Below, in pieces: positions 35,959 through 64,000 of a stretch of 64,000 nucleotides of DNA. The DNA comes from a virus. Within the stretch, counting starts at the first letter, position 1. Every line of letters begins with the position of its first letter. The position numbers were made by a program, and so were the translations under genes. Location: positions 8,005-72,004 of the IMG/VR virus record IMGVR_UViG_3300032163_000010, one strand, 5' to 3'. Under the pieces are notes generated by a model. That model was not told the DNA's origin and made no database searches. It worked only from the letters and a program-made list of their open reading frames with translations.

Positions 35959-36249
35959 TTGCTTGAAAAAACAGACGAGGGGAAGATAAAATCCGTTGAC
36001 GACGATGCAACGGCATTGTTGATCAAGAGATCGGGTGTCTATGGAACGCAATTCCCAGCATGGAGATTCATGTCTATTGATGCTATATTGTGTGGGGTCA
36101 TCTATAAAAGTGACCGCGCTCGAGTAACCAAGGATTTAAATAAAAAGTACGACGATATCAAAGATGCTATCAATTATCTGCGGTTCGTCGGAGTAAGGGT
36201 CAAGGAGGAGATAGAATGTCAGAAAAGCCTGTCAAAACCTCCACAGTAG
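35959..36249 (+). CDS. MazG-like nucleotide-modification-associated protein (DUF1599/Nmad1-like)
   Basis: KRSGVYG...K..RA...DDIKDAINY pattern. Confidence 0.55.
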   Translation: MLEKTDEGKIKSVDDDATALLIKRSGVYGTQFPAWRFMSIDAILCGVIYKSDRARVTKDLNKKYDDIKDAINYLRFVGVRVKEEIECQKSLSKPPQ

Positions 36250-36326
36250 ATGCAGTGCTGAAAACTTCAACAACGAAGACAATTACAGTGGATGCTGTGA
36301 TGAAGAAACTAGAGGAAGAGAAATGA
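36216..36326 (+). CDS. 36-aa peptide made of two KxxTVDAV repeats
   Basis: AGGAGG RBS; MSEKPVKTSTVDAVLKTSTTKTITVDAVMKKLEEEK. Confidence 0.6.
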   Translation: MSEKPVKTSTVDAVLKTSTTKTITVDAVMKKLEEEK

Positions 36327-36506
36327 TATGGATTTCAAAAAAGGAAAGTTCTGTTTGCATATCGAAGAGTCAACAGATGCCAGTAAATTCACAACCACGT
36401 CTATACAGTATGACAATAATCGGTTACTTAACTTGACAAGAGATGATCTTGAGGTTCTCAGAATTCTAGTGAACAGGGTTATTAGTTATCTGAACGAGGA
36501 CTAGGG

Positions 36507-37331
36507 ATGAACGAGAGAAATCCCGACAAGTTGTTTATTCACAAGTCCGGGCTTAGCGCATGGAGACAATGTCCGAGGAAGTTTTATTGGATGTATCTTA
36601 AACCACAGGATCCTGCGATGACAGAGGAGAGCATCGCGATGGAGCATGGAGCGACGTTTCACGATGTCGCTAGGAGGTTTACGTACCTCTATGATGTCGA
36701 TGTGCTCTTTAGCTACCCGACATGGATGGACAGGTTGAAGTACCTATCGGGGTGTATCCCTGTGGGATTGACGAAAACCATATGGGATTGGATGCAGAAT
36801 CTCGCGGACTTCGAAGCGAGGAGGTCTCTGGGATGGAAATTAGATCGATCGATGTTCAAACCGGTTGTGATGGAGAAATACCTTGAATCTGAAGAGTTCG
36901 GCTACGCGGGGACGTTAGATAGGATAGATCATTATGATGAGACGTCGTATGTAGTGATTGATTATAAACCAAGGATATATAACTTGAGCAGTTTGAGACA
37001 GGAACAGGCGATATATTGGGTCTTGGCGAACGATCAATTGAAGTTGGATAAGCCGGTCAACTACTGGGGGGTCATAGCTTACGATGAGGGCATTTACCGA
37101 ACTGAGGAGTTCAAGAAGGTCACGTTCACAGCTCTGAGGAAGAATACCGCGTATCTACAAACGGATATTGATAAGTACAAGAAGGAGCCATCCGAGGAAC
37201 TCTTTCCGTTAAAGGTAGGCGAATATTGCGACTGGTGTGGGTTTTTGTCAATTTGTTATCAAGACCCAAAGTACGTTGAAATAGCTTTAGGAGGAGGTAA
37301 AGATGGAGAAGAAGCTGATATTGGCGAGTGA
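36507..37331 (+). CDS. Cas4-like PD-(D/E)XK exonuclease
   Basis: QCPRKF, GTLDRID, IDYK, CDWC..IC Fe-S motif. Confidence 0.85.
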   Translation: MNERNPDKLFIHKSGLSAWRQCPRKFYWMYLKPQDPAMTEESIAMEHGATFHDVARRFTYLYDVDVLFSYPTWMDRLKYLSGCIPVGLTKTIWDWMQNLADFEARRSLGWKLDRSMFKPVVMEKYLESEEFGYAGTLDRIDHYDETSYVVIDYKPRIYNLSSLRQEQAIYWVLANDQLKLDKPVNYWGVIAYDEGIYRTEEFKKVTFTALRKNTAYLQTDIDKYKKEPSEELFPLKVGEYCDWCGFLSICYQDPKYVEIALGGGKDGEEADIGE

Positions 37332-38023
37332 AGAAAAGACATTGAAGGAACGGGTCCTCTCAGAGTTATCGTTCAGAAATCATAAGGTCCTTATTAGGTG
37401 TGAGAGGGTTCCTCAGATGAGGGATGTTATTCTCAAGTGGACGAGCGACAGAAGTCCTATGGTAGTCAATGTCAACGTTCAACGATGTGGTCTAGTGGTA
37501 TTGTTCGCCACAGGTACGACATTGACTTTCGTAGTTAACGACGTAGGTGATACATCGAAGTATGACCTAGTCATTGACGAGCGTGAGAAAAATGAAGTGG
37601 AATGAGGTTCTGAAGGGGTCGCAAGATCCCGTTTTTTTCCTTCCTTCGTCAGGGGTGAAGAAACACGCACTGATAAAGGTTCCGACAGGGAGGAAAATCG
37701 ATATGGGAAAACTGAGAACTCTGATTGGAGTTCCAGTAGTACAAGTAACGGATATGAAGACTCTACCAGAAAGGATGAGAGACCAGCAAATATTGATAGT
37801 TCAGATAGACGATATTGGGATGTCTCAGGAAGTGTTGTCTGTTGGGCGAACACTGGATTCAGGGATGGTCTTGGTTAATACAACCATGGGTGAGATGTTC
37901 TATAATTCGTTTGCCATATTATGGGTCATCTATTCACAGGGAACCCCGTCTGAGGAACTCAAGAAGTCCTGTGTCGAAGTGGAGATATCCGAGGAGGAAG
38001 ATATATGGGAGGAAAAGCAATAG
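37303..38023 (+). other. Two hypothetical ORFs (37303-37605, about 37592-38023)
   Basis: Overlapping ORFs in operon. Confidence 0.55.
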
Positions 38024-38727
38024 CAATCTGTTCAGGTGGGCTCGATTCCACGGTGATGTTGTATGAGATGGTTCATCGGGGGATTGAGACAATAGTTCTA
38101 AGTTTCGATTACGGACAGAAGCACAAGATCGAACTTGATTACATCGAGAGAACAGCGAAGAAGTTAGGGTTGCTATGGATCTTAGAACGCATGCCTACGT
38201 TCTCAAGTGCCCTCACAAATCTCTCGGAGACTATCCCAATGACAGATTATGATGACAAAGCTCAGAGGGTTACGGTCGTACCGAATAGGAATATGATAAT
38301 GATTGCTATTGCCGCAGGATATGCGATACAAAATAAAGCAAGGGAAGTATGGTATGCAGCACATACGGGAGATCATGCGATATATCCGGATTGTAGAGAG
38401 GAGTTCGTGAGACCCTTGGCAGAGGCGTTGTATAAGGGAACGTATGAGAATATAATTCTAGTTGCTCCGTTCATCGACTTAACAAAGACGGATATAGTCT
38501 TGAGGGGAGCTCATCTAGGAGTGCCATTCCAAGATACATGGTCTTGTTATAGCCCAGTTGTGATGTATCAAGCTTATACGGTTAATATCCCGCAGAAAAT
38601 AGTCCTTTATCACTGTGGGCAATGTGGGACATGCAGAGAGAGGATCGAGGCGTTCAGAGAAGCGAGAGTCGCTGATCCAACTGCGTATATTAACACATGT
38701 GGAGTGGTAGTTAAAAATGTGTTATGA
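38005..38727 (+). CDS. queC: 7-cyano-7-deazaguanine synthase
   Basis: SGGLDS, FDYGQKH, VPNRN, YPDCR, TWSCY, CGQCGTC. Confidence 0.95.
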   Translation: MGGKAIAICSGGLDSTVMLYEMVHRGIETIVLSFDYGQKHKIELDYIERTAKKLGLLWILERMPTFSSALTNLSETIPMTDYDDKAQRVTVVPNRNMIMIAIAAGYAIQNKAREVWYAAHTGDHAIYPDCREEFVRPLAEALYKGTYENIILVAPFIDLTKTDIVLRGAHLGVPFQDTWSCYSPVVMYQAYTVNIPQKIVLYHCGQCGTCRERIEAFREARVADPTAYINTCGVVVKNVL

Positions 38728-42397: not shown

Positions 42398-43045
42398 ATG
42401 ATTTACGTCGATAGCCGTGAGCCTGCCGAAGTGATGCAGAGAGTCTGGGATAGGAAGATATCTCATATAGTGAAGAAACTCGAGGTGGCGGATTTTCAAA
42501 ATGAAAAAGAAACGGCGTTTATCGAAAGGAAGAAACCAGAAGACATCTGGGGAAGAGTCCTCAATAAGAACAACGGATGGGATGATCAAATGGGGAGGCT
42601 CTCTGAATATGCTTATGCACATAATGCCATGCCTTGGCTCATCGTTGAAGGGAGCTTTGATGCCGCTATACGCCGCACCAACGGGAAGATCCATGTCGAT
42701 GAGACTCGAGGAGCGATTGTCAGCGCTGCTGTTAGGTATGGAATCGCGGTCTGGAATGCCGACTCGTTGGATGACCTCCTCACCGTGGTCTGTGCTATCT
42801 GCGACAAAGCAGATAGAGAACTAGGAGTTCCAAGGAGATTACCATTCTCTCACTTAGCTATGGATAAACGCGCAGCAATCTTGATGAACGTGTGTCATGT
42901 AAGTTCGAGACAAGCCGAGTCGTTGTTGAATTACTTTGGATCAGTTAGAAATGTGTTGTTAGCTTCAGAAGATCAACTAGCGATTGTGAATAATGTTGGG
43001 AGGATAACTGCGAGAAAGATATGCCAGTATAAGGACTCGGTGTGA
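42398..43045 (+). CDS. ERCC4/XPF-family nuclease with HhH domain
   Basis: VDSRE, AD, IERK...D, LIVEG, FGSV.NV..AS..L..V..VG. Confidence 0.9.
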   Translation: MIYVDSREPAEVMQRVWDRKISHIVKKLEVADFQNEKETAFIERKKPEDIWGRVLNKNNGWDDQMGRLSEYAYAHNAMPWLIVEGSFDAAIRRTNGKIHVDETRGAIVSAAVRYGIAVWNADSLDDLLTVVCAICDKADRELGVPRRLPFSHLAMDKRAAILMNVCHVSSRQAESLLNYFGSVRNVLLASEDQLAIVNNVGRITARKICQYKDSV

Positions 43046-45105
43046 GGCTAGTGCATATATATGATCGGATGACAGAGGAATTCGTTCATAGGAAGTGTGC
43101 ACATGCTGATATCTATCCCGCGCATTATGCTTGTTCACTGGGAGGACATATATTTAACTTGGTGAACCAGAAGACAGAGGTTCTTATGGCTAATGCTATC
43201 CCAGTTGATACAAGGTTGCACACAATGTTCGTTGCTCCACCAGGATGTTGCTTAGACCAATGGTCGATAGTCACTATGGCCGATCAGTCGAAGACGTTCC
43301 TCAGAGATGTAGTTATAGGAGATAAATTGGCATCACAGAATGGGCAAGAGAACATAGTAACAAACGTAATGAAATCTCTGAAGATCAATATGCTGAGAAT
43401 ACAGCCACATAACATGTGTGTATCTGCAGAGCACGAGATCAAAACAAAAGATGATTGGGCATTTGCCGGAGACCTTCAAGAAGGAGATTTGATAGAGACT
43501 AGGTATTCCAAGGAGGGATTGCAATTCCTTGGATGGTGGATTGCCGAAGGGAGATTCGAAGGCAAATGGTGGACGCCGGTCATCGCAAACAAAGATGAAT
43601 CTGTGATTGAAGAATTAGAAACTGTTGCGAACAAATATGGATGTTCATGGAACGACGCAGGACCTATGGAGTATAGATTCACTCATGGTAAGAATTCTTC
43701 TGAGAGAAACAAACTAGCTGAATGGTTGAGATACTTTGGGTATGAGAAAGGTAGAGATACTAATTCAGGGAACAAACATGTACCTGAGGAATTGATGAAA
43801 TATTTAGAGTTAGATGGGTTAGTTTGGATTCTTAGCCAGATGTGGAGAGGAGATGGTACTGATAGAACACAGATGAGGTATGCATCGAAATCTAGAATGT
43901 TACTTGAACAAGTATGTGACATTCTAGATTTAGTTCATGTAGAGTATAGCGTATATGACTACGGCAAAGACACAGCTGAAGTATACGTACATGAAGAGTT
44001 TAGAGAAAGATTATATGATGCATTTGAGAGAGCAAGTCACTTCACCCAATTTAAAGGACTAATGAAAATAGACACTGTCCGTGAAGTATTATATCGCAGA
44101 TACGCTATTGACCTAGAAACCACACAAAGCCATTTTGTTGCGAATGATGTTGTGGTGCATAATAGCAAGACCTTCTGGCAAGAGCAGTTCCTTCGAGGCA
44201 AGTGGTGTATATTGGAAGGCACGATGACACAACATGGGTTCGAAGGATCGACGACAGAAGCAGGGTTTGTAGGATCGGCGACGATGTCTGAAAATGGAGA
44301 TCCCGTCGTGACTCCGGGGTTAGCTAAAGTCTACGAAGAGGGGATCGTGGGATTTGAGGAATTCTCGGCGTTGACGGCGATGATGAAATCTAGCCATTCT
44401 CAGCAATTAGATGCAGCGTTGTTGTTGGCCCTTGATAGGGGTTACGTCGTTAAGAGACTCAGGGCGGGAAAGATCGGTTATAAGACTAATGTGACCGTAT
44501 GGGCGGGAACCCAACCTTCAAGGTTCGATCTAACTTCGGGATTAGGACGAAGATTCTACTATCTTTTGCTGATCCCCACTGAAGAGGACAGGAGAGTGCT
44601 AAGAGAGAAGATAAGAGCTGGTTGGGGGGTCAGGATGGACGTGGAGAGGACTAATAAGATCAGAGCTAGTATAGATGAATTGAAGGATCGCCTATTTAAG
44701 GTAAAGACAGTTAAAAAGGATCCGTCGGTGAACTTGTTATTAGATGAACTGAATATGCCACCGTATGAAGAACAATTGTATGTCAGATTGATATTGGGAT
44801 ATAAGGTGATCACTGAGGACTTCGGAGAGACGTTGACGTTAGACATCGATCCAACAGTGGAGATGCTGTGCAGACAGGAGTCGATATGGAGGAAGGCAAT
44901 CAGGAGGGGTCCAGAGATAGCCGAGGTTGTCTCTTTGCTACGGGCAAATGGCAATAGTATGTCCATGATCGAGTTGAGAGATGCAATGATGGAATTCGGA
45001 ATGGATTGGAAACGATCGAGTGAGTTAATCACCGAGTTGTCGAAGATGAAGATCCTCGCAATGGGGGAAACGAATGTCTCATTAAGAGGGAAGTGGGATG
45101 GGTAA
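43042..45105 (+). CDS. MCM-like AAA+ helicase with intein
   Basis: Spliced Walker A APPGC|SKT, STTEAGFVGS, PG, FEEF, GRRF arginine finger, C-terminal wHTH. Confidence 0.75.
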   Translation: MRLVHIYDRMTEEFVHRKCAHADIYPAHYACSLGGHIFNLVNQKTEVLMANAIPVDTRLHTMFVAPPGCCLDQWSIVTMADQSKTFLRDVVIGDKLASQNGQENIVTNVMKSLKINMLRIQPHNMCVSAEHEIKTKDDWAFAGDLQEGDLIETRYSKEGLQFLGWWIAEGRFEGKWWTPVIANKDESVIEELETVANKYGCSWNDAGPMEYRFTHGKNSSERNKLAEWLRYFGYEKGRDTNSGNKHVPEELMKYLELDGLVWILSQMWRGDGTDRTQMRYASKSRMLLEQVCDILDLVHVEYSVYDYGKDTAEVYVHEEFRERLYDAFERASHFTQFKGLMKIDTVREVLYRRYAIDLETTQSHFVANDVVVHNSKTFWQEQFLRGKWCILEGTMTQHGFEGSTTEAGFVGSATMSENGDPVVTPGLAKVYEEGIVGFEEFSALTAMMKSSHSQQLDAALLLALDRGYVVKRLRAGKIGYKTNVTVWAGTQPSRFDLTSGLGRRFYYLLLIPTEEDRRVLREKIRAGWGVRMDVERTNKIRASIDELKDRLFKVKTVKKDPSVNLLLDELNMPPYEEQLYVRLILGYKVITEDFGETLTLDIDPTVEMLCRQESIWRKAIRRGPEIAEVVSLLRANGNSMSMIELRDAMMEFGMDWKRSSELITELSKMKILAMGETNVSLRGKWDG
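43249..44163 (+). mobile_element. Intein (305 aa) with LAGLIDADG-like endonuclease in the helicase P-loop
   Basis: Starts CLDQ, block B SAEH, FLGWWIAEG, MWRGDG, ends VVHN|S. Confidence 0.92.
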
Positions 45106-48382: not shown

Positions 48383-48763
48383 CTAATCCTCTACCGATAT
48401 AGGCGGAAGGTTCTTAGGCTTCCGTTCCTTTTCTTTTTCTAAAAGACCAATCGCACTTAAAGAGCCGTGCAGGTACTTCGATACTCTAAGACCGTCTTTT
48501 GTGATTGACCATATCGTAGTGCTCCAGGTTCTTCGGTCTAAGCCACTTTTCGCTATTTTCTGTCGGTACTGGTTGTCTGCAGATACTGGTTTAGTCTTCT
48601 CTTTAGCGAGGCCTCGTTCCTTTAGGTTTTCGAGAATAACGCGAACTGGGTACCACGAAATATTGGTTTCCCGCATCAGCCCAGTCACGGACATATCTTT
48701 CCGCGTTAGTGCCAATAAGACATCGAGATGCATCTCAGCCTGTCCGCGTTTCAACCTCATCAC
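48383..48763 (-). CDS. Archaeal wHTH regulator (HTH_45-like), related to 12025
   Basis: RGQAEMHLDVL..VTGLMRETNISW..LENLKERGL..WSITKDG. Confidence 0.7.
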   Translation of the reverse strand: MMRLKRGQAEMHLDVLLALTRKDMSVTGLMRETNISWYPVRVILENLKERGLAKEKTKPVSADNQYRQKIAKSGLDRRTWSTTIWSITKDGLRVSKYLHGSLSAIGLLEKEKERKPKNLPPISVED

Positions 48764-51700
48764 CCTGGGACGAGTATAGCATCGACAGTGAAACCCTTAG
48801 TTGTGCTTTTAAGCAGAAAATACAGAGTACCCAACGTTGGATGCCGGGGTTTTACGTCCGAGATATCCCCGGCACCTGAGGAGGTTTCGATGTAATAATT
48901 CGCTCCCCAAAAATGCACCTTCGCCTTTGCAGAATCCGGTATTCGTGATGTCCGCAATGCCTGAATGCCACTGGGAGTTTTGACCTTCACAAAGGGAATG
49001 CCAGTGAGCACCGCGTCCACTGTTACTGCTTTTGTGCTCGATGGCGGAGTTGTGATAATAGCATCAGCCGCGAAGGACTTTTCTGCTTCCCAGGGAAAGT
49101 TAAGCGGAAAGTAAGCAAACCGTACCTTCCATGGATTCACCCCACCAGTTAGGTAAACCAAGCCTGTGAAATTGCCATAGGCTCGGTAGAAACACGTCAT
49201 GTCGGGCCTTGAATTGCCATAATTGTCGGTAGCTAACGGGTCTGAACTTTGGTTGATCCAATCAACCATGGCACTCCAATTTGCTCCGCCGTCGGTACTA
49301 GTTTGATAGTAAATATGCTCTGCTACCGCTCCTGGGGGTGTGTTAGTTGTCTTTGTTGACCAGAAACAGTAAAGCGTGGTGTCTCTGATGCTTAATACAG
49401 GGAAAGCGTAATAAGGTATATTCGCTTTAACTGTGGTCTCGCTACCCCATAAACCAGTTGAATAGGTTCTCTTACGGGATTTTATGTAACAATATGGATC
49501 TATGTATGTCACAAACTCCAGATAAACGTTGTTGCTGGGGTCAGCGACAACGCTATGCTGAACAGAATCACGTATACTTGAAAAAGAAGCTGTTTCCTCC
49601 CCGCCCATCGAACCTGTCCACAATCTTCCTTTGACAGTATCGCCATTAAAAGCATACGTGATGTACATTTTGCCGTCAGTTAATGGAATTACAGAAACAT
49701 CCCAATAATGGATTACGGTGCTCAGTTGATACGTGCTATGAGATGTCCACGTTCCGTTGTTCTGATCGCATTTATTGACAAAGGGGCAAATGTCAAATCC
49801 ATAATGATTCATATACCCTATCCAAGGATAACCGTTAGAGTCAACCGAAACAAAGGGTTTCGTTATTCCTGACCATGCATCGTAAAGATTCTGCTCATTT
49901 ATGGTACTCCATGTTATTGAACCGTCATATTTCGGAAAGCCACGTCTATAACGCAGACGAACGCCACTTGCATGAGCGTAGTGCAGATATTGTCCATCGA
50001 ACCAAATGGAAAATTCGTAGCCATCCGCGGCTGCTCTAACCGTTGTCGCTGCAGACCAAGTTGCACCGTCTGAGCTTGTTCTGTATACCATATTCGTGCC
50101 GTTACTGTAGAAAACCCAGAACAAACCGCTTGCGCGGAAGCTCTTACGCTGATACTGAAATGTAATTGCAAGATAATCCGTGCTCGTTCCAACTAAGTGT
50201 CCCGCACCGGTTATTCTACCGTCAGCGGTGAAGGTCTTCGTTTTCACTCCGCTTGTAAGAACTGCATCCGCTGTGAAGGTTTTTGTGGATGCGAGTCTAG
50301 CGTCAGCTGTGAAAGGTTTAGTTGATCGTTTTACAATTACAGCATCAACTATAGGCGATTTAGTGAATCGTTTTACAATTACAGCATCAACTGTGAAGGC
50401 CTTGGGTTTCAGCAGAATAGCGTCAGCCGTGAAGTCCTTAAAATGTACACCCAGAGATATAAGATTCGCGTCGACTGTAAATGGCTTAGTGAACCTCGTT
50501 GAAATCCAAGCATCTGCAAGGAGGGCCTTAGTGGGTCTTCTTACAACCCTAGCATCTGCCTTGAAAGTCTTATTGATAGTTTGAAGGCCATTCTTGAAAT
50601 ACCCAGTGTATATGAAGTACTCAAATGAGGTGTTTCCAGTATAGAGTTCTATGGTTGCGCTTACGGATATTCCCACGGTGATTGTGTAACCGTTATATTC
50701 TATCGGTGGGTAGGTTGCTCCTTCGCTTTCGTGTACAAGTATGTATCTAGCAAGTGAGCTACCTCCTTTCCGAGCACCTTCGTTATATTCGGTATCTGGG
50801 GAGTAGTTGCAAAGGATTAAGCTGACAAAGTTGTTTACATCAACAGGTTCATATTTGTATAGATTACCTAGAGATCCCGTTCCTCCATATATTTGCTCGG
50901 AAAGAATACAGAGAGACCGGATAATTGACTCGCTAAGTTTTGGTGCCGCTAAAGTCCAAGCATTAGACCCATTCCATTTTAATAGATAACCGTAAGAATC
51001 TCCGGTTCCACCGTATATCTCCCCGTTGAGAACACAAAGAGAGTAAATGGCACTATCCAAAGTGCCATACTCCGGTGCTACTTGAACCCAAGCATTAGAT
51101 CCATTCCACTTCAGCAGGTTGGCGCTGGGATATGTTCCTCCGTATATGTATCCATTTAGTACACAAAGAGAGCGAATGTCGGTCTCGGTACTATACTTTG
51201 ATGCTACTTGAACCCAGGCACTTGTTCCATTCCACTTCAGCAGGTTACCATTCGGAGAAGTTCCGCCATATATTACTCCATTTAGGACACAAAGGGAATA
51301 GATAGCTGTTTCTGAGCCGTATAGTGGTGCTACTTGAACCCAGGCGCTAGATCCATTCCATCTCAGTAAATTGCCGTTAGGGAATGTTCCACCATATATT
51401 TGACCATTCAGTACACAAAGAGAATCGATATATGTTTCTGACCCATACTTTGACGCAACCTGAACCCAAGCACCAGATCCATTCCATCTTAACAGTAAAC
51501 CGTTGGGATTTGTTCCTCCGTATATTTGTCCATTTAGGACAACGAGGCTCCAGATACCTGTTTCTGACCCATATTTGGGTGCTACTTGAACCCACGCGGT
51601 TCCGTTCCACTTAAGAAGGTTCCCATTCGGAATCGTTCCACCATATATCTCGCCATTCAGCACGCAGAGGGAGGTTATATGTGTCTCCGAGCCGTATTGT

Positions 51701-52449
51701 GCTGCCTTCTGGACCCAAGCCGGCAGAGTAAGTGAGTTCCATGTCGCTGATAAACCCGCCTCGAATGCTTGCCAATTTTCAACGAAGTCGGTCTCCTGGC
51801 CGAAGTATCCAAGATCAATTAGGGATTTGCTTGTGCCTTCGTTAATCCAATACTGGATGATATCTGAGGCATCACTCTTTACGTAGAACATGAGGCCGGA
51901 GCCACCGTTTGCCTCCGGCTCATGGATGTATGATAGTTTGCGCTCTAATGAACTACCCTTTGTTCTGACACCACCGTTCCAAGACACATCTTGATTCGCT
52001 GAGCTGATGATCACACTGTGGACTCTACTGTTAGCAGTTCCCAGGTCAAGATCAGTCCACGCCCCGATGGTAGAGATGGCTGTCGTAGCCATGGTTTCAA
52101 TAAAGTCACAGCCCGTGAAGTAGCCAAGTATCCTAAAAGAGTGGAGATCACTAACATCCTCCATGTAGACCTCGATAAGACCTGTCGTTGAGTGAACTTT
52201 GACAGGCATAGTGTAGACGACTTCCCCACCATCCTCAGCTTCATGGATGCTGATATAGCGATTTAGTGCGGAGCCGTCTGCTCTGACCCCCATCAAATTC
52301 TCATTAGCAAGTGTACCGTTACAGAGAGCAATCTCAACAATAGCTCCCTTTGGTACTCCGTGGTTGGTGAAGATATCGTAATCAGTCCATACACCATCGC
52401 TTCCGGGAGCTGTGAAACTAGCTACTAATTCTACATATGCGATGGTCAT
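48760..52449 (-). CDS. Mosaic tail fibre/receptor-binding protein
   Basis: Three N-terminal repeats, seven-blade propeller repeats, KxFTxDA stalk, BNR-like (TSTDGG.NW) domain. Confidence 0.75.
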   Translation of the reverse strand: MTIAYVELVASFTAPGSDGVWTDYDIFTNHGVPKGAIVEIALCNGTLANENLMGVRADGSALNRYISIHEAEDGGEVVYTMPVKVHSTTGLIEVYMEDVSDLHSFRILGYFTGCDFIETMATTAISTIGAWTDLDLGTANSRVHSVIISSANQDVSWNGGVRTKGSSLERKLSYIHEPEANGGSGLMFYVKSDASDIIQYWINEGTSKSLIDLGYFGQETDFVENWQAFEAGLSATWNSLTLPAWVQKAAQYGSETHITSLCVLNGEIYGGTIPNGNLLKWNGTAWVQVAPKYGSETGIWSLVVLNGQIYGGTNPNGLLLRWNGSGAWVQVASKYGSETYIDSLCVLNGQIYGGTFPNGNLLRWNGSSAWVQVAPLYGSETAIYSLCVLNGVIYGGTSPNGNLLKWNGTSAWVQVASKYSTETDIRSLCVLNGYIYGGTYPSANLLKWNGSNAWVQVAPEYGTLDSAIYSLCVLNGEIYGGTGDSYGYLLKWNGSNAWTLAAPKLSESIIRSLCILSEQIYGGTGSLGNLYKYEPVDVNNFVSLILCNYSPDTEYNEGARKGGSSLARYILVHESEGATYPPIEYNGYTITVGISVSATIELYTGNTSFEYFIYTGYFKNGLQTINKTFKADARVVRRPTKALLADAWISTRFTKPFTVDANLISLGVHFKDFTADAILLKPKAFTVDAVIVKRFTKSPIVDAVIVKRSTKPFTADARLASTKTFTADAVLTSGVKTKTFTADGRITGAGHLVGTSTDYLAITFQYQRKSFRASGLFWVFYSNGTNMVYRTSSDGATWSAATTVRAAADGYEFSIWFDGQYLHYAHASGVRLRYRRGFPKYDGSITWSTINEQNLYDAWSGITKPFVSVDSNGYPWIGYMNHYGFDICPFVNKCDQNNGTWTSHSTYQLSTVIHYWDVSVIPLTDGKMYITYAFNGDTVKGRLWTGSMGGEETASFSSIRDSVQHSVVADPSNNVYLEFVTYIDPYCYIKSRKRTYSTGLWGSETTVKANIPYYAFPVLSIRDTTLYCFWSTKTTNTPPGAVAEHIYYQTSTDGGANWSAMVDWINQSSDPLATDNYGNSRPDMTCFYRAYGNFTGLVYLTGGVNPWKVRFAYFPLNFPWEAEKSFAADAIITTPPSSTKAVTVDAVLTGIPFVKVKTPSGIQALRTSRIPDSAKAKVHFWGANYYIETSSGAGDISDVKPRHPTLGTLYFLLKSTTKGFTVDAILVPG
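50865..51720 (-). repeat. Seven near-identical 41-43-aa beta-propeller blades
   Basis: WVQVAPKYGSETxIxSLCVLNGxIYGGTxPNGNLLKWNG repeated. Confidence 0.9.
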
Positions 52450-52459
52450 AGACTGCACC

Positions 52460-54686: not shown

Positions 54687-55073
54687 TTATATCACCACAT
54701 GCGTCGATCCACGCCAGAATTCCATATTATAGAAAAATACCCTAGCAAACCCCGGCCGTTCTTCAATATTCATCCCTGCGAACACGAAATCTCTTCCTGA
54801 GTAGAGCATTCCAGTAGATGTGATCGTAACTACCGTATGTATCAGATCCTCTAGCTTCCCTGAGCCAGAGAGATAATCCGTAACCAGATTCGCCTTAGTG
54901 TGTGCAGCTTCTGCTAGGAGGCCTTCTATCTTGAGAACCTCAGCCTTACGACCAAAACTAATCAACAAAGGCAATGCCGAAGGGAACCTCGTGGATTTGA
55001 TATCCGCGTCCATCTTGTGTTCGATTCTCATTGGATACCTAGGTAACGTCACACTCCCTATTTGGAAACTCAT
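54687..55073 (-). CDS. Distal tail protein-like
   Basis: 128 aa directly after the tape measure gene. Confidence 0.5.
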   Translation of the reverse strand: MSFQIGSVTLPRYPMRIEHKMDADIKSTRFPSALPLLISFGRKAEVLKIEGLLAEAAHTKANLVTDYLSGSGKLEDLIHTVVTITSTGMLYSGRDFVFAGMNIEERPGFARVFFYNMEFWRGSTHVVI

Positions 55074-55076
55074 TCA

Positions 55077-57491
55077 TCACTCCCCCGGGCTAACATTCCT
55101 TCCGAATAAACTATCCGCTGAACCACTAGCAGCGGCATCTTGGAGCCTTTGTAGATCTATATCACTGCTCACACTGTCTATATTAATAGTCTGATATACG
55201 GTCTGCTGTTGGGAAGTCATACCAGCTCCTACTCCTACTCCCCCTGTTATTGTTGGTTCTGGAGCCTTCGGGAACAACCAACCAAACCACGAGGTCAGAT
55301 TACTCCATAGCTCTTGCAACCACTTAATGAGCCCCTGCACTGCCGCAGTAACTTCATCCCAGTAGAAGATCAACAGGGTAATGATACCTATTACAGCTAA
55401 TATCGCCCAGCCAACGGGACCTATAGCTGCAAGGAATCCCGATAATACACTGCCTACAGAGGCAACGAGTGGTATCAAAAACCCGAACACATGTCCTAGT
55501 GCTAAAAACAACGGCATTATCAATGCCATGACAGCACCGACTGCCATCATTATCGGCGAGAGCACTAGTAGCACTGCGAGAATTTGTCCGATCAGCGGTG
55601 CCCAAGGTTTGAGGAACTCTGCAAAACTCACTAGATAAGGCATCAATCCAGCTACTGCCTGTACTAATGACATGAGTATTATCCCACCGGCCCCTCTCAT
55701 GACCTCCGTTAACCCATTAATGATTTGTATCAAGTACGGCGCAGCTTCAACGGCTAGCCTCAAGAACTCCGCTTGCAACATTCCTAACGACGTCTGCACT
55801 TGTAACCCCACTTCAGGAAGCCTCGCAAGGGTATCCCTCATACCTTCAATATTAGCAATCCCTGCAACATCGAATCCTGCCATTGCCAGCCCCATTGTCG
55901 TCGCGAGACTCTCCATACCCCCCTCCCAATCCTGGAGGGCATTGATAAGCATCTGTATTATACCAGTAGCCATCGACCAGATTATCCTTCCTAAGATGAG
56001 CAATCTGAATCCTAACCACATAGTGCGGAATCCCATCCCCTTCATTCCGGCAGCTGCTTTACCTGTACCCTTGGCTGCTTTCCCTCCTTCCCCGCCTAAA
56101 CCTTTAAGTGCTTTAGATATCCCACCGAATATATCCCCAACTGTAACAGGTTCCGTTTGTTTAGTCCAATCCTGCTCCTGTTCAAACTCCGCAGTCTTAG
56201 TTCTCTCTCCCATTGTTCCTCCCTTAGTCCAAGAGATGCCCCACTTCCTTGCAGGGCCCCTTGCTGTGGTTTCCCTCGCTAGACCAGGTATCTCAATACC
56301 AGCAAGGTTCTCTTTAAGAGTCTGGATAGCTGCCTTAGCTTGTTCTATGATCCCTCCTTCAGGCTTCCGGTATTCCATAGGTTCTCCGGTTACTGCAGCG
56401 GCCTTATATGCAACTCCCATCTGTTTTTCGACTACATCAGGGAGGATGTCTACAATGTTCTCTAGGTCGATGTTCTTGAACATATCCTGAATAGCTGTTG
56501 CCATCATCCTCTCGATGTAAGTCCTGCTGACTCCAGGAATCCCAGGAGCCATCGCTGGCTGTGCAACCGCCTCCTCAGGGAAGGCTTTCTCAAATCTTGC
56601 CCAAAAATCCTTAGCCTGAAGGGCCATTACTTCCCCAGGAGTCTCTGGCATGGGTTCTCTGGCAATGGCCATCCTCTGAGGGCCACGATACGTCATGAAG
56701 TCCGCTCTAACCGCGGTGATCTTCTGTGCTAAATCCTTATCAACTATGTTATAATCTGTAGCTAATCTCTTATTCAAATTCTCAAATATATCAATCATCC
56801 TACCAAGGACTCTTTGCAACTGCTCAGGCTTCAGTTTGGCAATCATCACGTCGGACATGATTTGTCTTTCTATAGGAACGTCTTCAGCTCTGGCTTTCTT
56901 TCTCCTTTTGCCCGCTTTCTCTGTTACCTCAGTGAGTTTGAACTCCTCTTCCGGACCTTCGTCTTCTTCCCCAGCAGCAGCTCCCCCTCCCCTTGGTGGG
57001 GGTCCTTCCCCGCCTTCCTCTTCTGTTGGCTCACCTACCTCCTCTTCGTCTTCTTCCCCAGCTTCTATTTCCACTTCAGCTTTCTCGGCCTCAACAACAA
57101 CAGGGGCAGCTGCTCCTTCAGGTGCTGGAATCAGAATGCCCTCTTGTTTAGCAAACGCAGCAGCAGTGGCCTCTTCCTTCGCTTGTTCTACTCCTGAGAC
57201 TATTCCTTGGATTTTCTCCTCAGCAATAGTAGGTATTCCGGATGCTCGCATCTCCTCGGGGGTTAGCTCTTCCTTCCTTAGCCTCGGCATCTCAGGGACT
57301 CTATGCTCTAAGGCCTCCTTTGCAACCGGCTGTGTAACACCATAGACCTCCTGAGGTTTAGGTACAGGACCTTTCTTATAAACTTCCCTCGAGGCATCCT
57401 GTATCCTCTTTAATCTGGCCTCCGCTGCGTCAGCTACCTCTTTGTTCTGCTCCCGCCACTTGACATTAATGTTTAGATCTCTTTCGGCCAT
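55077..57491 (-). CDS. Tape measure protein
   Basis: Helical Ala/Gly-rich protein with hydrophobic C-terminal half, follows the tail chaperones. Confidence 0.8.
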   Translation of the reverse strand: MAERDLNINVKWREQNKEVADAAEARLKRIQDASREVYKKGPVPKPQEVYGVTQPVAKEALEHRVPEMPRLRKEELTPEEMRASGIPTIAEEKIQGIVSGVEQAKEEATAAAFAKQEGILIPAPEGAAAPVVVEAEKAEVEIEAGEEDEEEVGEPTEEEGGEGPPPRGGGAAAGEEDEGPEEEFKLTEVTEKAGKRRKKARAEDVPIERQIMSDVMIAKLKPEQLQRVLGRMIDIFENLNKRLATDYNIVDKDLAQKITAVRADFMTYRGPQRMAIAREPMPETPGEVMALQAKDFWARFEKAFPEEAVAQPAMAPGIPGVSRTYIERMMATAIQDMFKNIDLENIVDILPDVVEKQMGVAYKAAAVTGEPMEYRKPEGGIIEQAKAAIQTLKENLAGIEIPGLARETTARGPARKWGISWTKGGTMGERTKTAEFEQEQDWTKQTEPVTVGDIFGGISKALKGLGGEGGKAAKGTGKAAAGMKGMGFRTMWLGFRLLILGRIIWSMATGIIQMLINALQDWEGGMESLATTMGLAMAGFDVAGIANIEGMRDTLARLPEVGLQVQTSLGMLQAEFLRLAVEAAPYLIQIINGLTEVMRGAGGIILMSLVQAVAGLMPYLVSFAEFLKPWAPLIGQILAVLLVLSPIMMAVGAVMALIMPLFLALGHVFGFLIPLVASVGSVLSGFLAAIGPVGWAILAVIGIITLLIFYWDEVTAAVQGLIKWLQELWSNLTSWFGWLFPKAPEPTITGGVGVGAGMTSQQQTVYQTINIDSVSSDIDLQRLQDAAASGSADSLFGRNVSPGE

Positions 57492-58344: not shown

Positions 58345-59310
58345 TTAGATCGGTCCTGCGGTCATATTCGTCAGCACCATCTGGTTCGATGCACTATAGA
58401 ACGCCTTGAAGTTCACCGTCTGTCGCAGTCTATCCCTAGTGTTCACAGGAGACGGAATCTCAGTTATCCCTGCTGCCGGGAAACTAAACTCCAAATCATA
58501 GCTGTCATGTACTTGACCACTAGGTGGACCATCACACGCTATGCTTATCGCTCCAGTATAGTACTCGTCCTGAGGTGTCGTCGAAGCACCAGCCAATCCA
58601 TAGAACTTCTGTCTCTGTGTCCAGTCAGCAAACCTTCCCTCAAGTTCTCCCGTTATCTCAAAGCCTTCTTCTACGATGTCCGGCAAGAACCTCGATCCTG
58701 TGGTGTGAGCGTCATCAGGAACAGTTCTCTCTATCCTTACTCTGAAGGATTCACACTTGAGAACCTGCCCAAAGGACGTCACTGTAGCGTCGAACAGTGT
58801 AAAAGGTCTTACCGAAGGTATCGTACCCAGAGCTGACGGTGCGGCAGCGATGTCTTCCTTATTATACTGCAGTGTCCATGTGGACATCACCGGCCTATCC
58901 TGGGCTGCTTCAAACTCCACAGTTTTCACTACGCACCCCAGAAGAGCTAATGCGTTAACCGACGCACCAGTCACATGTTCCATGAAGAAGGATTTCACTC
59001 CTTCGCTCATAGTGAACGTATGCTGTTGCATCCCATCGTGTGCGACTGAATTGGCTGTTCCCCAGATCCATTTCAGCAAGTTCGCTATATTGTCCGGTCT
59101 CGCGAAAGTCCGCAGCGTATACTCGCCGACGAAGCCTCCCATCACAGCGCCAGTATCCATCAGATAGATTGACTCCCTCAAGTCCATCTGATTATTGTTC
59201 GGTACAGGTTCGCCATCCACAAATGGCAAGTACTTCGCTCCGGTTGGATACCCTGCGGGCTTTGAGGCGTACGCGGTTTCCTCTAACACTCCAACCCATC
59301 TACTTCCCAT
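58345..59310 (-). CDS. Tail tube protein, paralog 2
   Basis: E..YA N-terminus, HTFT, position before the chaperone; similar to 59326. Confidence 0.8.
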   Translation of the reverse strand: MGSRWVGVLEETAYASKPAGYPTGAKYLPFVDGEPVPNNNQMDLRESIYLMDTGAVMGGFVGEYTLRTFARPDNIANLLKWIWGTANSVAHDGMQQHTFTMSEGVKSFFMEHVTGASVNALALLGCVVKTVEFEAAQDRPVMSTWTLQYNKEDIAAAPSALGTIPSVRPFTLFDATVTSFGQVLKCESFRVRIERTVPDDAHTTGSRFLPDIVEEGFEITGELEGRFADWTQRQKFYGLAGASTTPQDEYYTGAISIACDGPPSGQVHDSYDLEFSFPAAGITEIPSPVNTRDRLRQTVNFKAFYSASNQMVLTNMTAGPI

Positions 59311-59325: not shown

Positions 59326-60336
59326 TTACGCACTTACCAACCGTGCATCCACGGCGAAATTCTTTCTATTAGTCCCGGGTGGCCCCGATGCTAAGTTGTA
59401 CAGCTCTATCTTCATCGTGGCATCATAAAACGCCTTAAACTCGAGTCGCTGCATCAGCCTATCCCTAGTACCCACTGGGTTTTCTTGCGCTGTTAATCCC
59501 ACTTTGGGCATCGTAAAAATCAAGTCATAGCTGTCGTAAGTTTGCCCAGACGGAGGACCATCACAATTAATAGATAACTCGCCTGTCAAGTACTCCTTGG
59601 CTGGGCTTGACGGCGCACCAGTGCCGAAGAATCTCTGTTTCTGAGACCATCCTTCGAATCTCCCTTCTAGCTCTCCTGTTATCTCGAATCCCTCTTCCAC
59701 TACATTTGGTAGGAATCTCGATCCAGAGACATGCGCGTCGTCCGGAATCGTTCTCTCTATTCTCAGTCTGAACGACTCACACTTGAGGACCTCACCAAAG
59801 GATGTAACAGTTGCATCGTACAACGTGAACGGTCTAACAGCAGGTAGCGTTCCTAACGCAGAAACTGCATCCACGAGATCTTCTGTCCGATATTGCAACG
59901 TCCACGTCGCGATCAACGGTCTATCCTGCGAGGCCTCAAACTCAACACTCTTCACGACACATCCCAAGAGGAACGCAGGATTCACTGCTACAACTCCCGG
60001 ATAATGCTCTGCAGAGAATGTCCTTGCGTCTTCAGCCATGGTAAACGTATGTTTATACATTCCCTGAGCAAAGAGTTCCGTGACTTGTCCCATTGCCCAT
60101 TTCAGTAAGAATGCCAGGTTATCAGGCCTAGCGAACATCCTTAGGGTGTGCTCTCCTACAAATCCACCCATTGTGGCGCCAGTATCAGGTAAGTATATCG
60201 ACTCCCTTAGATCCATCTCATTATTATTCGGGACTGGCTCGCCGTCAATGAATGGGTAGTACTGCACACCGCTTGCCCAGCTAGGTTTCACTCCATAACT
60301 GGACTCTTCCTTCACCGCTATCCATCTACTTCCCAT
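59326..60336 (-). CDS. Tail tube protein, paralog 1, with C-terminal KNFAVDARL motif
   Basis: EESSYG, shares DGEPVPNNN.MDLRESIYL and EEGFEITGELEGRF with 58345. Confidence 0.8.
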   Translation of the reverse strand: MGSRWIAVKEESSYGVKPSWASGVQYYPFIDGEPVPNNNEMDLRESIYLPDTGATMGGFVGEHTLRMFARPDNLAFLLKWAMGQVTELFAQGMYKHTFTMAEDARTFSAEHYPGVVAVNPAFLLGCVVKSVEFEASQDRPLIATWTLQYRTEDLVDAVSALGTLPAVRPFTLYDATVTSFGEVLKCESFRLRIERTIPDDAHVSGSRFLPNVVEEGFEITGELEGRFEGWSQKQRFFGTGAPSSPAKEYLTGELSINCDGPPSGQTYDSYDLIFTMPKVGLTAQENPVGTRDRLMQRLEFKAFYDATMKIELYNLASGPPGTNRKNFAVDARLVSA

Positions 60337-61261: not shown

Positions 61262-61262
61262 T

Positions 61263-61913: not shown

Positions 61914-61964
61914 TCAGATTACCCCCGTTGACAAATACCAGTCTGTATTATCAGACTGACCAGA

Positions 61965-61980
61965 AGTATATAAAAACTTG
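61965..61980 (-). promoter_or_regulatory. BRE-TATA promoter of the tail operon
   Basis: Minus strand CAAGTTTTTATATAC, followed by inverted repeat CAGTCTG/CAGACTG. Confidence 0.7.
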
Positions 61981-62003
61981 GTACAGCGAACAATCATCAT
62001 CAA

Positions 62004-64000
62004 TCACTCCGGTGATGTAAACCCTCCTTTGCGAGAGTCATCTGCTATGACCCCCGATCGGTCGTCAGCAGATATCCCCTCCCCTCTACTATCATCGACT
62101 AATTCCATCTGACGACTATCGTCGACGAAGAGCCCTCCTGCGGAACGTTGGGCAAATTCTCCATAGGGCCATGGGCGAGTTATTATAGCGTCAACTCTAA
62201 ACAACGCCGCACGGATTAACACAGTGTCGATTTCGAACGTAGTTTCTTTCCATCCGCCTAGTATGGCATCTACTTTGAATGTCTTATCGACTCTGCGGAG
62301 CAGATATCCATCTGCAGTTGTTACCTTGGTCGACCTACGGACTAGGTACGCATCAGCAGTCGTAGTCTTCGGATAGACACCTTTCAACACTGCATTAGCA
62401 TTGAATTCCTTCGTCAACCTATCTACTAATACTGCATCAATAATTGGCTCCTTAGTTAGTCTCTTCCTTAACTGAGCGTCTGTTACCGTCTCCTTGGTTA
62501 GCCGACCAACCAACCTCCCATCCACTAAGACGTCCTTGGTGAGAGATTTCTTCAGCAAGGCATCCGTAGTGAATGGCTTACCTAGCCTACTAACCATCCA
62601 ACTGTCAATTAAGAAATCCTTCGTACGAGTTGTTGCCCCGGGAGTGGATAGTATAGCATCTGCTTCAAATGTCTTCGTGGCAGATAACTTCTTTAACCAG
62701 GCATCACTTGAAAATGGCTTACTTAACCGACTAACTAATCTTGCGTTAATATCTAAGGTCTTATCTAACCTGCTTACCGTTATGGCATCTGCCATAAAGA
62801 TTTTACCAGTTCTAAGAATTAACTCTGCATCAGCAATAAATGGCTTACTTAATCTATTAACTACCCAACTGTCAATTAAGAAATCCTTCGTAACGTTTAG
62901 CTTCTTTAACCAGGCGTCTACACTCATCGGCTTAATTAGTCTGTTTACCAGCCTTGCATCGGCTACCGTGGGTTTCCCCCTATTCAGATACTTCAGCACG
63001 GCGTCTGCACTAAAGGGTTTCGTTAACCTACTTACAACTATTGAATCTACAATTGATTCTTTGGTCTTTCTTGCTACGGGGGAAGCATCAACAGTGAAAT
63101 CCTTAATAAACCCGACCTTCTTTAGTACTGCATCAACTGTGGCACCCTTTGATAATCTCCGTCTTATATCCGCATTTATCTTATAATCCTTCGTAGATCT
63201 CCTAACTACGTACCCATCTGCAACAGTGGTTTTGTCCTTTCTATACCTAAGACCCGCGTCGACTAAGAAGTCCTTCGGAATACCTAATTTCTTCAGTACG
63301 GCATCCGCGTTGAGATCCTTTATTAGTCTATTTACTAAAACAACGTCGGTTGCTAATTCTTTGATTAATCTCCGCCTAACCTGTGAGTCTATAGTAATTT
63401 CTTTAGTTAACCGCTTAACTAACCTTCCATCTGTTATAAAATCTTTTGTACGAGTTGTTGCTCCGGTAGCTAGTCTTGCATCCGCAGAGAACGTCTTCTC
63501 CTTGCGTGAGACTAATATCGCGTCAGCTGTGAATGCCTTATCCTTGTAGAACTTCAGATTCTGCGGACACTCAAAATACGCGGCTGCGGAAGCCACCGGA
63601 GTTTGATCTACAACATCCGTCGTACCGTCGTAATACGTATGTGCTGTATATGCAGACGTCTTGACGTTGTTGAGGTAATACCAAACCTCTACAACGATCC
63701 TGTCTCCATTAAGGATAGAAAAGTCTCCAGCTGCACCTGCTTGGGTATCTATATAACCCGTCTCAGATGTCGCATCACCGTGGGTGTCCGTCGCTGGCCC
63801 TAAGATAGTCTTAACATTCCCTGAACCTTGTCTGTAAACGTAAACAAATACATCATTGAATTGGTTCTGCAGAGTGCTGCTCTCCATCTGCGCGGTAGCA
63901 ACTTTCCAGTTCGCTTGTCCACCGGTTAACGTCTGTGCTGCTAGTTCTGGGGTTATAAACAACCTCATCAGTACATATCTAGCAACACCAGCGTTGTTAT
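62004..64000 (-). CDS. Repeat-rich virion fibre protein (5' end outside the window)
   Basis: Roughly 30 tandem 14-15-aa K-x-F-x-x-D-A-x-L repeats; frame stays open upstream of 63968. Confidence 0.7.
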   Translation of the reverse strand, partial: NNAGVARYVLMRLFITPELAAQTLTGGQANWKVATAQMESSTLQNQFNDVFVYVYRQGSGNVKTILGPATDTHGDATSETGYIDTQAGAAGDFSILNGDRIVVEVWYYLNNVKTSAYTAHTYYDGTTDVVDQTPVASAAAYFECPQNLKFYKDKAFTADAILVSRKEKTFSADARLATGATTRTKDFITDGRLVKRLTKEITIDSQVRRRLIKELATDVVLVNRLIKDLNADAVLKKLGIPKDFLVDAGLRYRKDKTTVADGYVVRRSTKDYKINADIRRRLSKGATVDAVLKKVGFIKDFTVDASPVARKTKESIVDSIVVSRLTKPFSADAVLKYLNRGKPTVADARLVNRLIKPMSVDAWLKKLNVTKDFLIDSWVVNRLSKPFIADAELILRTGKIFMADAITVSRLDKTLDINARLVSRLSKPFSSDAWLKKLSATKTFEADAILSTPGATTRTKDFLIDSWMVSRLGKPFTTDALLKKSLTKDVLVDGRLVGRLTKETVTDAQLRKRLTKEPIIDAVLVDRLTKEFNANAVLKGVYPKTTTADAYLVRRSTKVTTADGYLLRRVDKTFKVDAILGGWKETTFEIDTVLIRAALFRVDAIITRPWPYGEFAQRSAGGLFVDDSRQMELVDDSRGEGISADDRSGVIADDSRKGGFTSPE

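What the first reader, a model, noticed from the sequence alone, without database searches (positions are those of the whole stretch)
36216..63540. One KxFTxDA repeat shared by three virion proteins and a free 36-aa peptide
Seen: the 14-15-aa unit K-x-(F/T/I)-x-(V/A)-D-A-x-L occurs about 30 times in the 62004 protein, as a stalk and at the very C-terminus of the 48760 fibre, once as the C-terminal tail of one tail-tube paralog (RKNFAVDARLV), and twice as nearly the whole of an RBS-led peptide at 36216-36326 on the opposite strand in the replication operon (KTSTVDAVLK, KTITVDAVMK). Inference: a beta-strand docking or polymerisation code that attaches fibres to the virion, with the peptide acting as cap, chaperone or decoy.
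Basis: partly seen in the sequence, partly recalled or inferred. Interest (0 to 1): 0.8.

Follow-up and report, generated by a model that had tools for sequence, protein, structure and literature searches.

The report
Unannotated 14-residue fibre repeat with short tags
An environmental tailed virus builds the rods of two fibre proteins from a previously unannotated 14-amino-acid repeat, and short copies of it sit on a tail-tube protein and in a strain-specific 36-residue ORF, which may serve to hang fibres on the particle, though this is not shown.

Summary
A profile of the 14-aa unit (xxTKxFxxDAxLxx) finds 30 units in the 62004 protein, 10 at 5 bits or more in the 48760 fibre, one at the C-terminus of one tube paralog and two in the 36-aa ORF. 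Nothing else in the six-frame genome exceeds 4.7 bits, apart from a truncated second copy outside the window.

The repeat is an unannotated shaft module of metagenomic tailed-virus fibres. It has 44 homologues, no Pfam, PHROG or PDB sequence match, and no paper containing the motif strings. The array is swappable: a relative keeps the same C-terminal tail but uses a different repeat.

The docking idea is partly supported. Two-unit tags occur on other proteins in 3 of 15 foreign array-bearing records, including the protein right after the tape measure in two viruses. No interaction was shown.

The peptide is not conserved. It is absent from all 4 relative contigs and has no small homologue. Its "RBS" is coding sequence of the upstream gene.

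The tube tag is the weakest item at 7.0 bits, and 0 of 150 tube homologues carry a unit.

The scan noted analogous tube-tag ideas on other DNA (e1-5330463, e1-5872175), but not this repeat.

The parts
62004..63998 (-). Head-module fibre-like gene (P0001), truncated at its 5' end by the window and contig end. It has an N-terminal beta-sandwich domain, a repeat array and a DDSR tail.
   Evidence: It matches no Pfam or PHROG family. It has 44 homologues. The N-domain is modelled as beta strands at pLDDT 56-82.
62253..63548 (-). Array of 30 tandem 14-aa units (aa 151-582), followed by about two degenerate units.
62007..62135 (-). C-terminal tail with four DDSR-like mini-repeats, ending in TSPE. 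It is conserved in relative G001, whose array is of a different repeat type.
48760..52458 (-). Tail fibre or receptor-binding protein (P0002, 1232 aa). By eye it contains ~45-aa propeller-like repeats and Asp-box-like motifs.
   Evidence: There is only a weak Pfam beta-propeller hit, below cut-off. It matches no PDB sequence.
50215..50580 (-). Stalk of 9 units in P0002 (aa 627-748).
   Evidence: scores 4.1-15.2 bits. Also found at E = 6.8e-48 with profile A2.
49006..49089 (-). Two weak units between the Asp-box domain and the last small domain of P0002.
   Evidence: scores 0.2 and 5.1 bits. Found at E = 4e-4 with A2.
48763..48813 (-). Single unit at the extreme C-terminus of P0002.
   Evidence: 11.1 bits. 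Found at E = 0.024 with A2.
59326..60336 (-). Tail tube paralog that carries the C-terminal extension.
   Evidence: PF18906 at E = 2.7e-14 and phrog_290.
59329..59376 (-). 16-aa C-terminal extension of the tube paralog, containing one unit.
   Evidence: 7.0 bits. It is absent from the 61%-identical paralog and from all 150 homologue representatives. It is not found by profile A2.
58345..59310 (-). Second tail tube paralog, without the extension.
   Evidence: PF18906 at E = 5e-16.
36216..36326 (+). 36-aa ORF made almost entirely of two units.
   Evidence: Found at E = 6e-7 with A2. It was called as a gene in the protein collection, but only for this contig.
36328..36504 (+). 58-aa ORF of no known family. 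It lies in the same roughly 280-nt insertion and is coupled to the peptide (TGA, one base, ATG).
   Evidence: It matches no Pfam or PHROG family. The insertion is absent from relatives.
35959..36249 (+). Upstream 96-aa gene. Its 3' end contains the peptide's SD-like GGAGGAG and its ATG.
54687..57491 (-). Tape measure (55077-57491) and the 128-aa protein that follows it (54687-55073). The 128-aa protein carries no unit in this virus.
   Evidence: BLASTP against the tagged G008 protein gives E = 2.6.

Best explanation
What the unit is. The 14-residue unit (consensus xxTKxFTxDAxLxx) is one amphipathic beta strand followed by a 4-5-residue turn. The residues K, F, D-A and L are conserved.

What arrays do. 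Tandem arrays of the unit form an extended beta rod, probably oligomeric. This rod serves as an exchangeable shaft or spacer in fibre proteins of a thinly sampled group of environmental tailed viruses. In this virus the unit builds three things:
- the rod of at least 30 units in the head-module fibre;
- a 9-unit stalk in the tail fibre;
- the linkers and the C-terminal end of the tail fibre.

What the short copies do (inferred). One- or two-unit copies at the ends of other proteins are spin-offs of the same module. The most likely mechanism is beta-sheet augmentation: the tag adds its strand or strands to an array, or to other tags, and so tethers a fibre to the tube or the tail tip.

What the 36-aa ORF is. 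It is a two-unit piece that arrived with a strain-specific insertion of about 280 nt in the replication module. It is more likely a dispensable small protein or a by-product than a conserved cap or chaperone.

Shown: the repeat, its distribution and the tags. Inferred: the fold, the oligomeric state and any docking.
For: Repeat and significance.

Shaft role:
- Among the 8 of 44 homologues that I read, arrays of up to dozens of units are joined to varied globular domains.
- Precomputed Pfam domains on hits are PF13385, PF10102 and PF01833. Their names (LamG-like, DUF2341, IPT/TIG) are recalled, not from a call.
- The same N-terminal domain occurs with other repeat types in P0010 and P0013.
- The syntenic G001 protein keeps the DDSR...TSPE tail but has a 20-aa Arg-rich repeat.

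Strand-plus-turn unit:
- Columns K, F and D are at least 90% conserved in the 65-row alignment.
- In the second AF2 model each unit is one 8-9-residue strand followed by a loop. Confidence is low (pLDDT 51.7).
- Both monomer models are poor. This fits a rod that needs partner chains but does not prove it.

Tags recur:
- G007 and G008 post-tape-measure proteins have two N-terminal units.
- G007 and G011 proteins of 182-203 aa have two C-terminal units.
- G007 and G008 each have two array proteins.

The tags match the virus's own version of the unit: 4 of 8 tag units score best with the position matrix of their own virus among 8 viruses, including both peptide units.

Co-absence: relative G001 lacks arrays, a tagged tube paralog and the peptide in the 26 kb read.

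Arrays look virus-specific. Among 70 exact-motif loci from one genome per 185,579 species, arrays occur only on one 39,772-bp contig binned with a Candidatus Iainarchaeum MAG. That is the same length as viral record G008.
Against: - No interaction was demonstrated.
- Only 3 of 15 foreign array-bearing records show tags on other proteins. The three records rated 100% complete (G009, G012, G013) have none. That search cannot see single units.
- The tube tail scores only 7.0 bits. About 0.1-0.25 such hits per genome are expected by chance. It is not recovered by profile A2.
- 0 of 150 tube homologues carry a unit.
- Single copies of the 8-mer TKTFTADA occur in many unrelated cellular protein families, so a lone unit can arise by convergence.
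- The roughly 30 phrog_3099 tube-like proteins ending in TKTFTADA come from records with no arrays: 0 of 5 records checked, 3 of them at least 90% complete.
- The two AF2 models disagree with each other. One is solenoid-like and the other a strand meander, and both are low confidence.
- The peptide is absent from relatives and shows no sign of a recent DNA copy from this virus's own arrays. The best own-array window shares 13 of 28 residues and 47 of 84 nt, with 5 of 13 third positions matching.
Confidence: 0.55

Rival explanations
1. The repeat is only a shaft. It is a fibre rod module and nothing more. The terminal units of the fibre itself simply end or nucleate its own rod. The tube extension is a chance or convergent amphipathic strand. 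The tags in G007, G008 and G011 oligomerise the proteins that carry them, with no docking between different proteins.
For: - Most array-bearing records show no tags on other proteins: 12 of 15.
- The tube tail scores only 7.0 bits and is unique among 150 homologues.
- The 8-mer recurs singly in unrelated families.
- The phrog_3099 C-termini occur without arrays in the same record.
Against: - Two-unit tags at E 1e-10 to 4e-9 sit at the same N-terminal place of the post-tape-measure protein in two viruses that also carry two array proteins each.
- All motif-bearing elements are jointly present here and jointly absent in G001.
Confidence: 0.3
2. The 36-aa ORF is translated, and its two units bind array ends or tags, acting as a cap, assembly chaperone or decoy.
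For: - The ORF is intact, with GGAGGAG 5 nt upstream of an ATG.
- Relatives have ACG where this virus has the ATG.
- It is tightly coupled to the next ORF.
- Both units keep K, D-A and L, and both score best with this virus's own array matrix.
- Synonymous sites are randomised relative to this virus's own arrays while the motif is kept.
Against: - It is absent from 4 of 4 relative contigs.
- No small homologue was found.
- The SD-like sequence is ancestral coding sequence.
- The start overlaps the upstream gene by 34 nt.
- It lies in the early/replication strand, not with the structural genes.
- No other free small ORF with two units was seen in the 58 viral loci scanned.
Confidence: 0.12
3. 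The arrays are themselves adhesive. Like other beta-hairpin repeat binders, they bind host surface polymers along their length. On this reading, short units on tube or tail-tip proteins add weak host adhesion rather than fibre docking.
For: - Arrays are joined to lectin-like domains in homologues (the Pfam names are recalled).
- One face of the strand is conserved and polar (T, T, D).
Against: - No similarity to any known binding repeat was found in the Pfam or PDB sequence searches.
- The array can be swapped for unrelated repeat types behind the same N-domain. This fits a spacer better than a specific binder.
Confidence: 0.08

Closest known systems
Short-period fibre shaft repeats, such as the roughly 15-residue triple beta-spiral of the adenovirus fibre and reovirus sigma1 (recalled, not from a call)
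   Same: Both have a short period (14 against about 15 residues) and an alternating hydrophobic/polar strand pattern. Both form long tandem arrays that carry globular receptor-binding domains. Copy number varies between relatives.
   Different: There is no conserved Gly or Pro turn position. The conserved residues here are K, F, D-A and L. No sequence match to any solved structure was found. The trimeric state is not established here.
Beta-solenoid rods (tailspikes, autotransporter passenger domains, bactofilin, curli CsgA)
   Same: The low-confidence AF2 monomer model of the array aligns to such chains at Z 8-11.4. Solenoids can grow or dock by stacking further coils.
   Different: The rmsd is 4-13 A and the model's pLDDT is about 44. 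The second model, made with a deeper alignment, gave a strand meander instead. The match may only reflect a generic repeat arrangement.
Long forms of siphovirus tail tube proteins (SPP1 gp17.1*, Listeria phage Tsh-L; recalled, and named in earlier scan note e1-5872175)
   Same: Some tube subunits carry a C-terminal addition that decorates the tail.
   Different: Here the addition is a 16-residue tag on a separate paralogous gene (61% identity). It is not a recoded domain-sized extension.
Split-anchor head spike with a micro-protein adaptor (earlier scan note e1-5330463, which cites the RcGTA head spike)
   Same: The idea is the same: a short shared tag on tube and fibre-related proteins, plus a very small ORF.
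   Different: That is a different sequence in a different virus. There the micro-protein was reported as conserved, whereas here the peptide is not. I did not test that note.

Membership tests
Any annotated protein family (Pfam-A, PHROGs) for the repeat proteins | Profile match above threshold | tested here: not met
   P0001 matches 0 families in Pfam (E <= 0.01) and in PHROGs (E <= 0.001). P0002 has only one sub-threshold propeller hit (23.4 bits against a cut-off of 88.2).
Triple beta-spiral fibre shaft | Repeat of about 15 residues with a conserved Gly/Pro turn and alternating hydrophobic residues | tested here: inconclusive
   The period is 14 and an alternating pattern is present. The only columns conserved at 90% or more are K, F and D, with no Gly or Pro among them. 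The definition of the family is recalled.
Triple beta-spiral fibre shaft | Homotrimeric intertwined assembly | not testable with these tools
   This needs an experimental structure or a confident multimer model.
Single-chain beta-solenoid | Confident model with one coil per repeat or pair of repeats, matching solved solenoids | tested here: inconclusive
   Matches reach Z up to 11.4, but on a model of pLDDT 43.8. The second model (pLDDT 51.7) has a different topology.
Phage_tube_2 (PF18906) tail tube | Profile match above the gathering score, for both paralogs | tested here: met
   59.6 and 53.9 bits against a cut-off of 27, plus phrog_290.
Recoded long-form tail tube proteins | Extension produced by frameshifting from the same gene | tested here: not met
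   The extension is in frame in one of two separate adjacent genes.
Conserved small virion or assembly gene (for the 36-aa ORF) | Presence in related viruses at the same place, or homologues elsewhere | tested here: not met
   It is absent at the syntenic site in L001/L060, L061 and L062 and in an X3 contig that joins across the site. Among proteins of 33-105 aa only the query itself was found.

The most novel reading that the evidence does not exclude
The 14-residue unit is a portable hetero-docking code. Fibres made of arrays are hung on the particle by one- or two-unit tags carried by tube subunits, tail-tip proteins and small accessory proteins, through beta-sheet augmentation. On this reading a virus can re-address its fibres, or regulate their assembly with a free two-unit peptide, simply by moving a 14-28-residue tag.
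Probability: 0.2. Interest if true: 0.75.

Novelty: new variant of a known kind. Interest (0 to 1): 0.45.

Why it matters
Fibre shafts and their attachment points decide how tailed viruses display receptor-binding domains.

This repeat is a family with no Pfam, PHROG or PDB sequence match. It is found in uncultured environmental viruses, and one such viral contig is binned with a DPANN archaeon.

If the short tags really recruit array fibres, they would form a very small, transferable attachment module. That would explain how fibres are swapped and re-addressed between head, tube and tail tip. It would also give a simple sequence marker for finding fibre partners in metagenomic viruses.

If they do not, the finding is still a clean new repeat family that deserves a profile and a structure.

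Tried and rejected
Searches that found nothing or were unhelpful:
- Megablast and tblastn against 50,697 phage records gave no match.
- The search for related loci with the tube paralog gave no confirmed locus.
- In L003 (the record of P0006), the units are too diverged for my unit HMM, so it was not usable for counting tags.
- The ESM Atlas gave only unnamed viral clusters at 0.91-0.92, and structure hits with TM under 0.3 on a poor model.
- Literature: no paper holds any of four motif strings. A search on 14-residue repeat phrases plus "phage" gave 3 irrelevant papers, of which I saw only the listing. For the HFTV1 cryo-EM paper (PMC12494034) I read only the found passages, and they describe nothing like this repeat. 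Supplements were not available.

Prediction and sequencing-run jobs without a usable answer:
- Complex prediction with three copies of residues 282-441 of P0001 gave no verdict (score 0.00, controls not run). I draw nothing from it.
- Sequencing runs: no RNA holder was listed. Laid contigs do not cover 36203-36269 in any run. I draw nothing from these holes.

Ideas considered and dropped:
- The phrog_3099 tube-like proteins ending in TKTFTADA first looked like support for tube tags. I rejected this after 0 of 5 of their records showed arrays (with a positive control) and after single 8-mers turned up in many unrelated cell proteins.
- A co-variation test in G001, asking whether its tube end matches its own repeat type, was not possible. 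G001 has one tube gene and no tag.
- A -1 frameshift fusing the upstream 96-aa protein to the two units: I saw no canonical slippery heptamer in the 34-nt overlap by eye and did not pursue it.
- A tail-ruler idea, based on 30 units against about 30 tube rings estimated from an 804-aa tape measure (my arithmetic). I dropped it because the second copy has fewer units over the same span and because G007 has 32 units with a 645-aa tape measure.
- Fold search was run on the whole low-confidence model only. The N-domain was not searched alone.

Full report
**Context.** The window is bases 8005-72004 of a single 72,004-bp viral contig, rated linear and 100% complete. The minus strand from about 47.4 kb to the end carries a siphovirus-type structural operon:
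- tape measure at 55077-57491;
- two adjacent Phage_tube_2 paralogs at 58345-59310 and 59326-60336;
- an HK97-gp10-like tail completion protein.

The plus strand carries the replication genes: PolB with a LAGLIDADG insert and a PD-(D/E)XK nuclease. No phage record in the INPHARED collection resembles it. Earlier first-stage notes on this genome suggest an archaeal virus. I did not test that.

**Observation.** The 62004 protein has 30 tandem units of 14 residues, spaced 14 aa apart with a few spacings of 15, 17 or 18. Two degenerate units follow, then a tail with four DDSR-like mini-repeats. I built an HMM from the 30 units and ran it over all 2,677 six-frame segments of the genome. It separates cleanly. 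Hits of 5 bits or more occur only in:
- this protein (30 units);
- the 48760 fibre (10 units);
- a truncated second copy at genome 3-827 (4 units);
- the 36-aa ORF (9.8 and 13.2 bits);
- the C-terminus of tube paralog 59326-60336 (7.0 bits).

The next best hit is 4.7 bits. Forty shuffled proteomes gave 0.25 hits of 7 bits or more and 0.025 hits of 9.8 bits or more per proteome, and never two hits in one segment.

In the fibre the units form three groups:
- a 9-unit stalk at aa 627-748;
- two weak units at aa 1124-1151;
- the very last residues of the protein.

The two tube paralogs are 61% identical, and only one has the 16-residue extension. A second profile built mainly from foreign arrays finds the peptide at E = 6e-7. 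It does not find the tube tail. The tube tail is therefore the weakest element.

**What the repeat is.** P0001 has 44 homologues at E <= 0.001 among metagenomic proteins. In the eight that I read, arrays of TKTFTADAxLxxxx units are attached to varied globular parts. Precomputed Pfam domains on some hits are PF13385, PF10102 and PF01833. No Pfam or PHROG profile, no PDB sequence and no searchable paper matches the repeat.

The array is exchangeable:
- The same N-terminal domain precedes other repeat types in P0010 and P0013.
- In relative G001 the syntenic protein keeps the FVDDSRK...TSPE tail but has a 20-residue Arg-rich repeat.

In a 65-row repeat-registered alignment, the K, F and D columns are at least 90% conserved.

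AlphaFold2 monomer models are poor. The whole protein gave pLDDT 43.8, with the array drawn solenoid-like and matching beta-helices at Z 8-11.4 with high rmsd. The 160-residue array with the deeper alignment gave pLDDT 51.7, with one 8-9-residue strand per unit. The fold is not settled. My reading is a strand-plus-turn unit that builds an extended rod and needs partner chains.

**Distribution.** The exact 8-residue motif occurs in 53 stretches of IMG/VR. Arrays of six or more units were found in 13 distinct open frames, and 55 of the 58 viral loci held at that point had some hit.

Among one genome per 185,579 prokaryotic species there are 70 stretches. Arrays occur only on a 39,772-bp contig binned with a Candidatus Iainarchaeum MAG, which is the same length as viral record G008. 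The other hits are single copies in unrelated families. A lone unit can therefore arise by convergence.

About 30 viral hits are phrog_3099 tube-like proteins ending in TKTFTADA. Their records have no arrays: 0 of 5 checked, while the positive control gave 5 of 5. I do not count them as support.

**Tags.** I searched whole records with profile A2. Across 15 foreign array-bearing records, 3 have short two-unit matches in another protein:
- In G007 and G008, the 144/145-aa protein encoded directly after the tape measure begins with two units.
- In G007 and G011, a 182-203-aa protein encoded just upstream of an array gene ends with two degenerate units.

G007 and G008 each have two array proteins. 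The three records rated complete (G009, G012, G013) have a single array protein and no tag. This search does not detect single units.

In a simple position-matrix test, 4 of 8 tag units scored best with the arrays of their own virus among 8 viruses. These include both peptide units and both G008 units.

Relative G001 was read over 26 of its 53 kb. It has one tube gene, no unit above 3.3 bits and no peptide.

**The peptide.** The ORF lies in an insertion of about 280 nt between a conserved 93-96-aa gene and the nuclease gene. What the relatives have at this site:
- G001 (L001/L060) and L061 have the two genes abutting.
- L062 has a different Cys-rich ORF there.
- A 4,260-nt contig of run X3 joins 36176 to 36548 with 101 other letters between.

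Short contigs at 95-100% identity in X2 and X3 cover 36288-36637, so near-identical strains carry at least that part of the insertion.

The GGAGGAG before the ATG is the KEE(I/L)E coding sequence, also present in the relatives. The ATG replaces their ACG.

Homologue searches gave the following:
- No protein of 33-105 aa other than the query itself matched.
- Among longer proteins the only hit is a 1,604-aa array protein, which matches at many registers.

Compared with this virus's own arrays, the best window shares 13 of 28 residues and 47 of 84 nt, with 5 of 13 third positions matching. It is therefore not a recent copy.

**Contig ends.** Bases 1-661 of the genome are an 84-87% identical copy of the 5' part of P0001, with about 146 nt fewer. 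This is either a tandem paralog split by an assembly gap or a strain variant. Either way, P0001 is cut at its 5' end by the window.

**Verdict.**
- The repeat is a real, unannotated fibre shaft module.
- Sharing of short tags between virion proteins recurs in a minority of related viruses. This makes a docking role plausible but unproven.
- The 36-aa ORF is a genuine two-unit piece but is strain-specific.
- The tube tag is statistically modest.

Noticed in passing
Genome bases 1-827 (outside the window) against window 63214-64000: The contig start holds an 84-87% identical copy of the 5' part of the 62004 gene, with about 146 nt (roughly 3.5 units) fewer. It is either a tandem paralog across an assembly gap or a strain variant. 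The 62004 gene is therefore 5'-truncated in the window.
   Followed up: partly
L002 1477-3096 (-), P0010, P0013: Proteins with the same N-terminal domain carry unrelated repeat arrays: a 20-aa Arg-rich repeat and others. In G001 the protein also has the same DDSR...TSPE tail. The array is therefore a swappable cassette between conserved ends.
   Followed up: partly
Window 36228-36506; L062 about 100-335: The junction between the 93-96-aa gene and the PD-(D/E)XK nuclease gene is an insertion hot spot. It is empty in G001 and L061, holds a Cys-rich small ORF in L062, and holds the peptide plus a 58-aa ORF here.
   Followed up: partly
L059 4924-6270 (-): Relative G001 encodes a 448-aa protein next to its tail fibre gene that is made almost wholly of His-rich short repeats (HSNVPH and HTNTH types).
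   Followed up: no
Window 29864-33379 and 43042-45105: PolB carries a LAGLIDADG-like insert. A 687-aa protein has Hint/intein and LAGLIDADG hits, which suggests inteins.
   Followed up: no
L092/L115 (JAFCCK010000001.1) and G008: A 39,772-bp contig binned with a Candidatus Iainarchaeum MAG has the same length and the same array proteins as IMG/VR record G008, which has direct terminal repeats. This is a possible DPANN-archaeon link for this virus group.
   Followed up: partly
L009, L012, L016 and about 27 other viral loci; L082, L098, L110, L114, L123: phrog_3099 proteins (about 165 aa, weakly similar to major tail proteins) end exactly in TKTFTADA. Their genomes lack arrays.
   Followed up: yes
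Window 48760-52458: By eye, the fibre has six or seven ~45-aa repeats (WVQVA...LNG.IYGGT) and Asp-box-like motifs (SxDGGxxWS) in a roughly 350-aa domain. Only a sub-threshold Pfam propeller hit was found.
   Followed up: no
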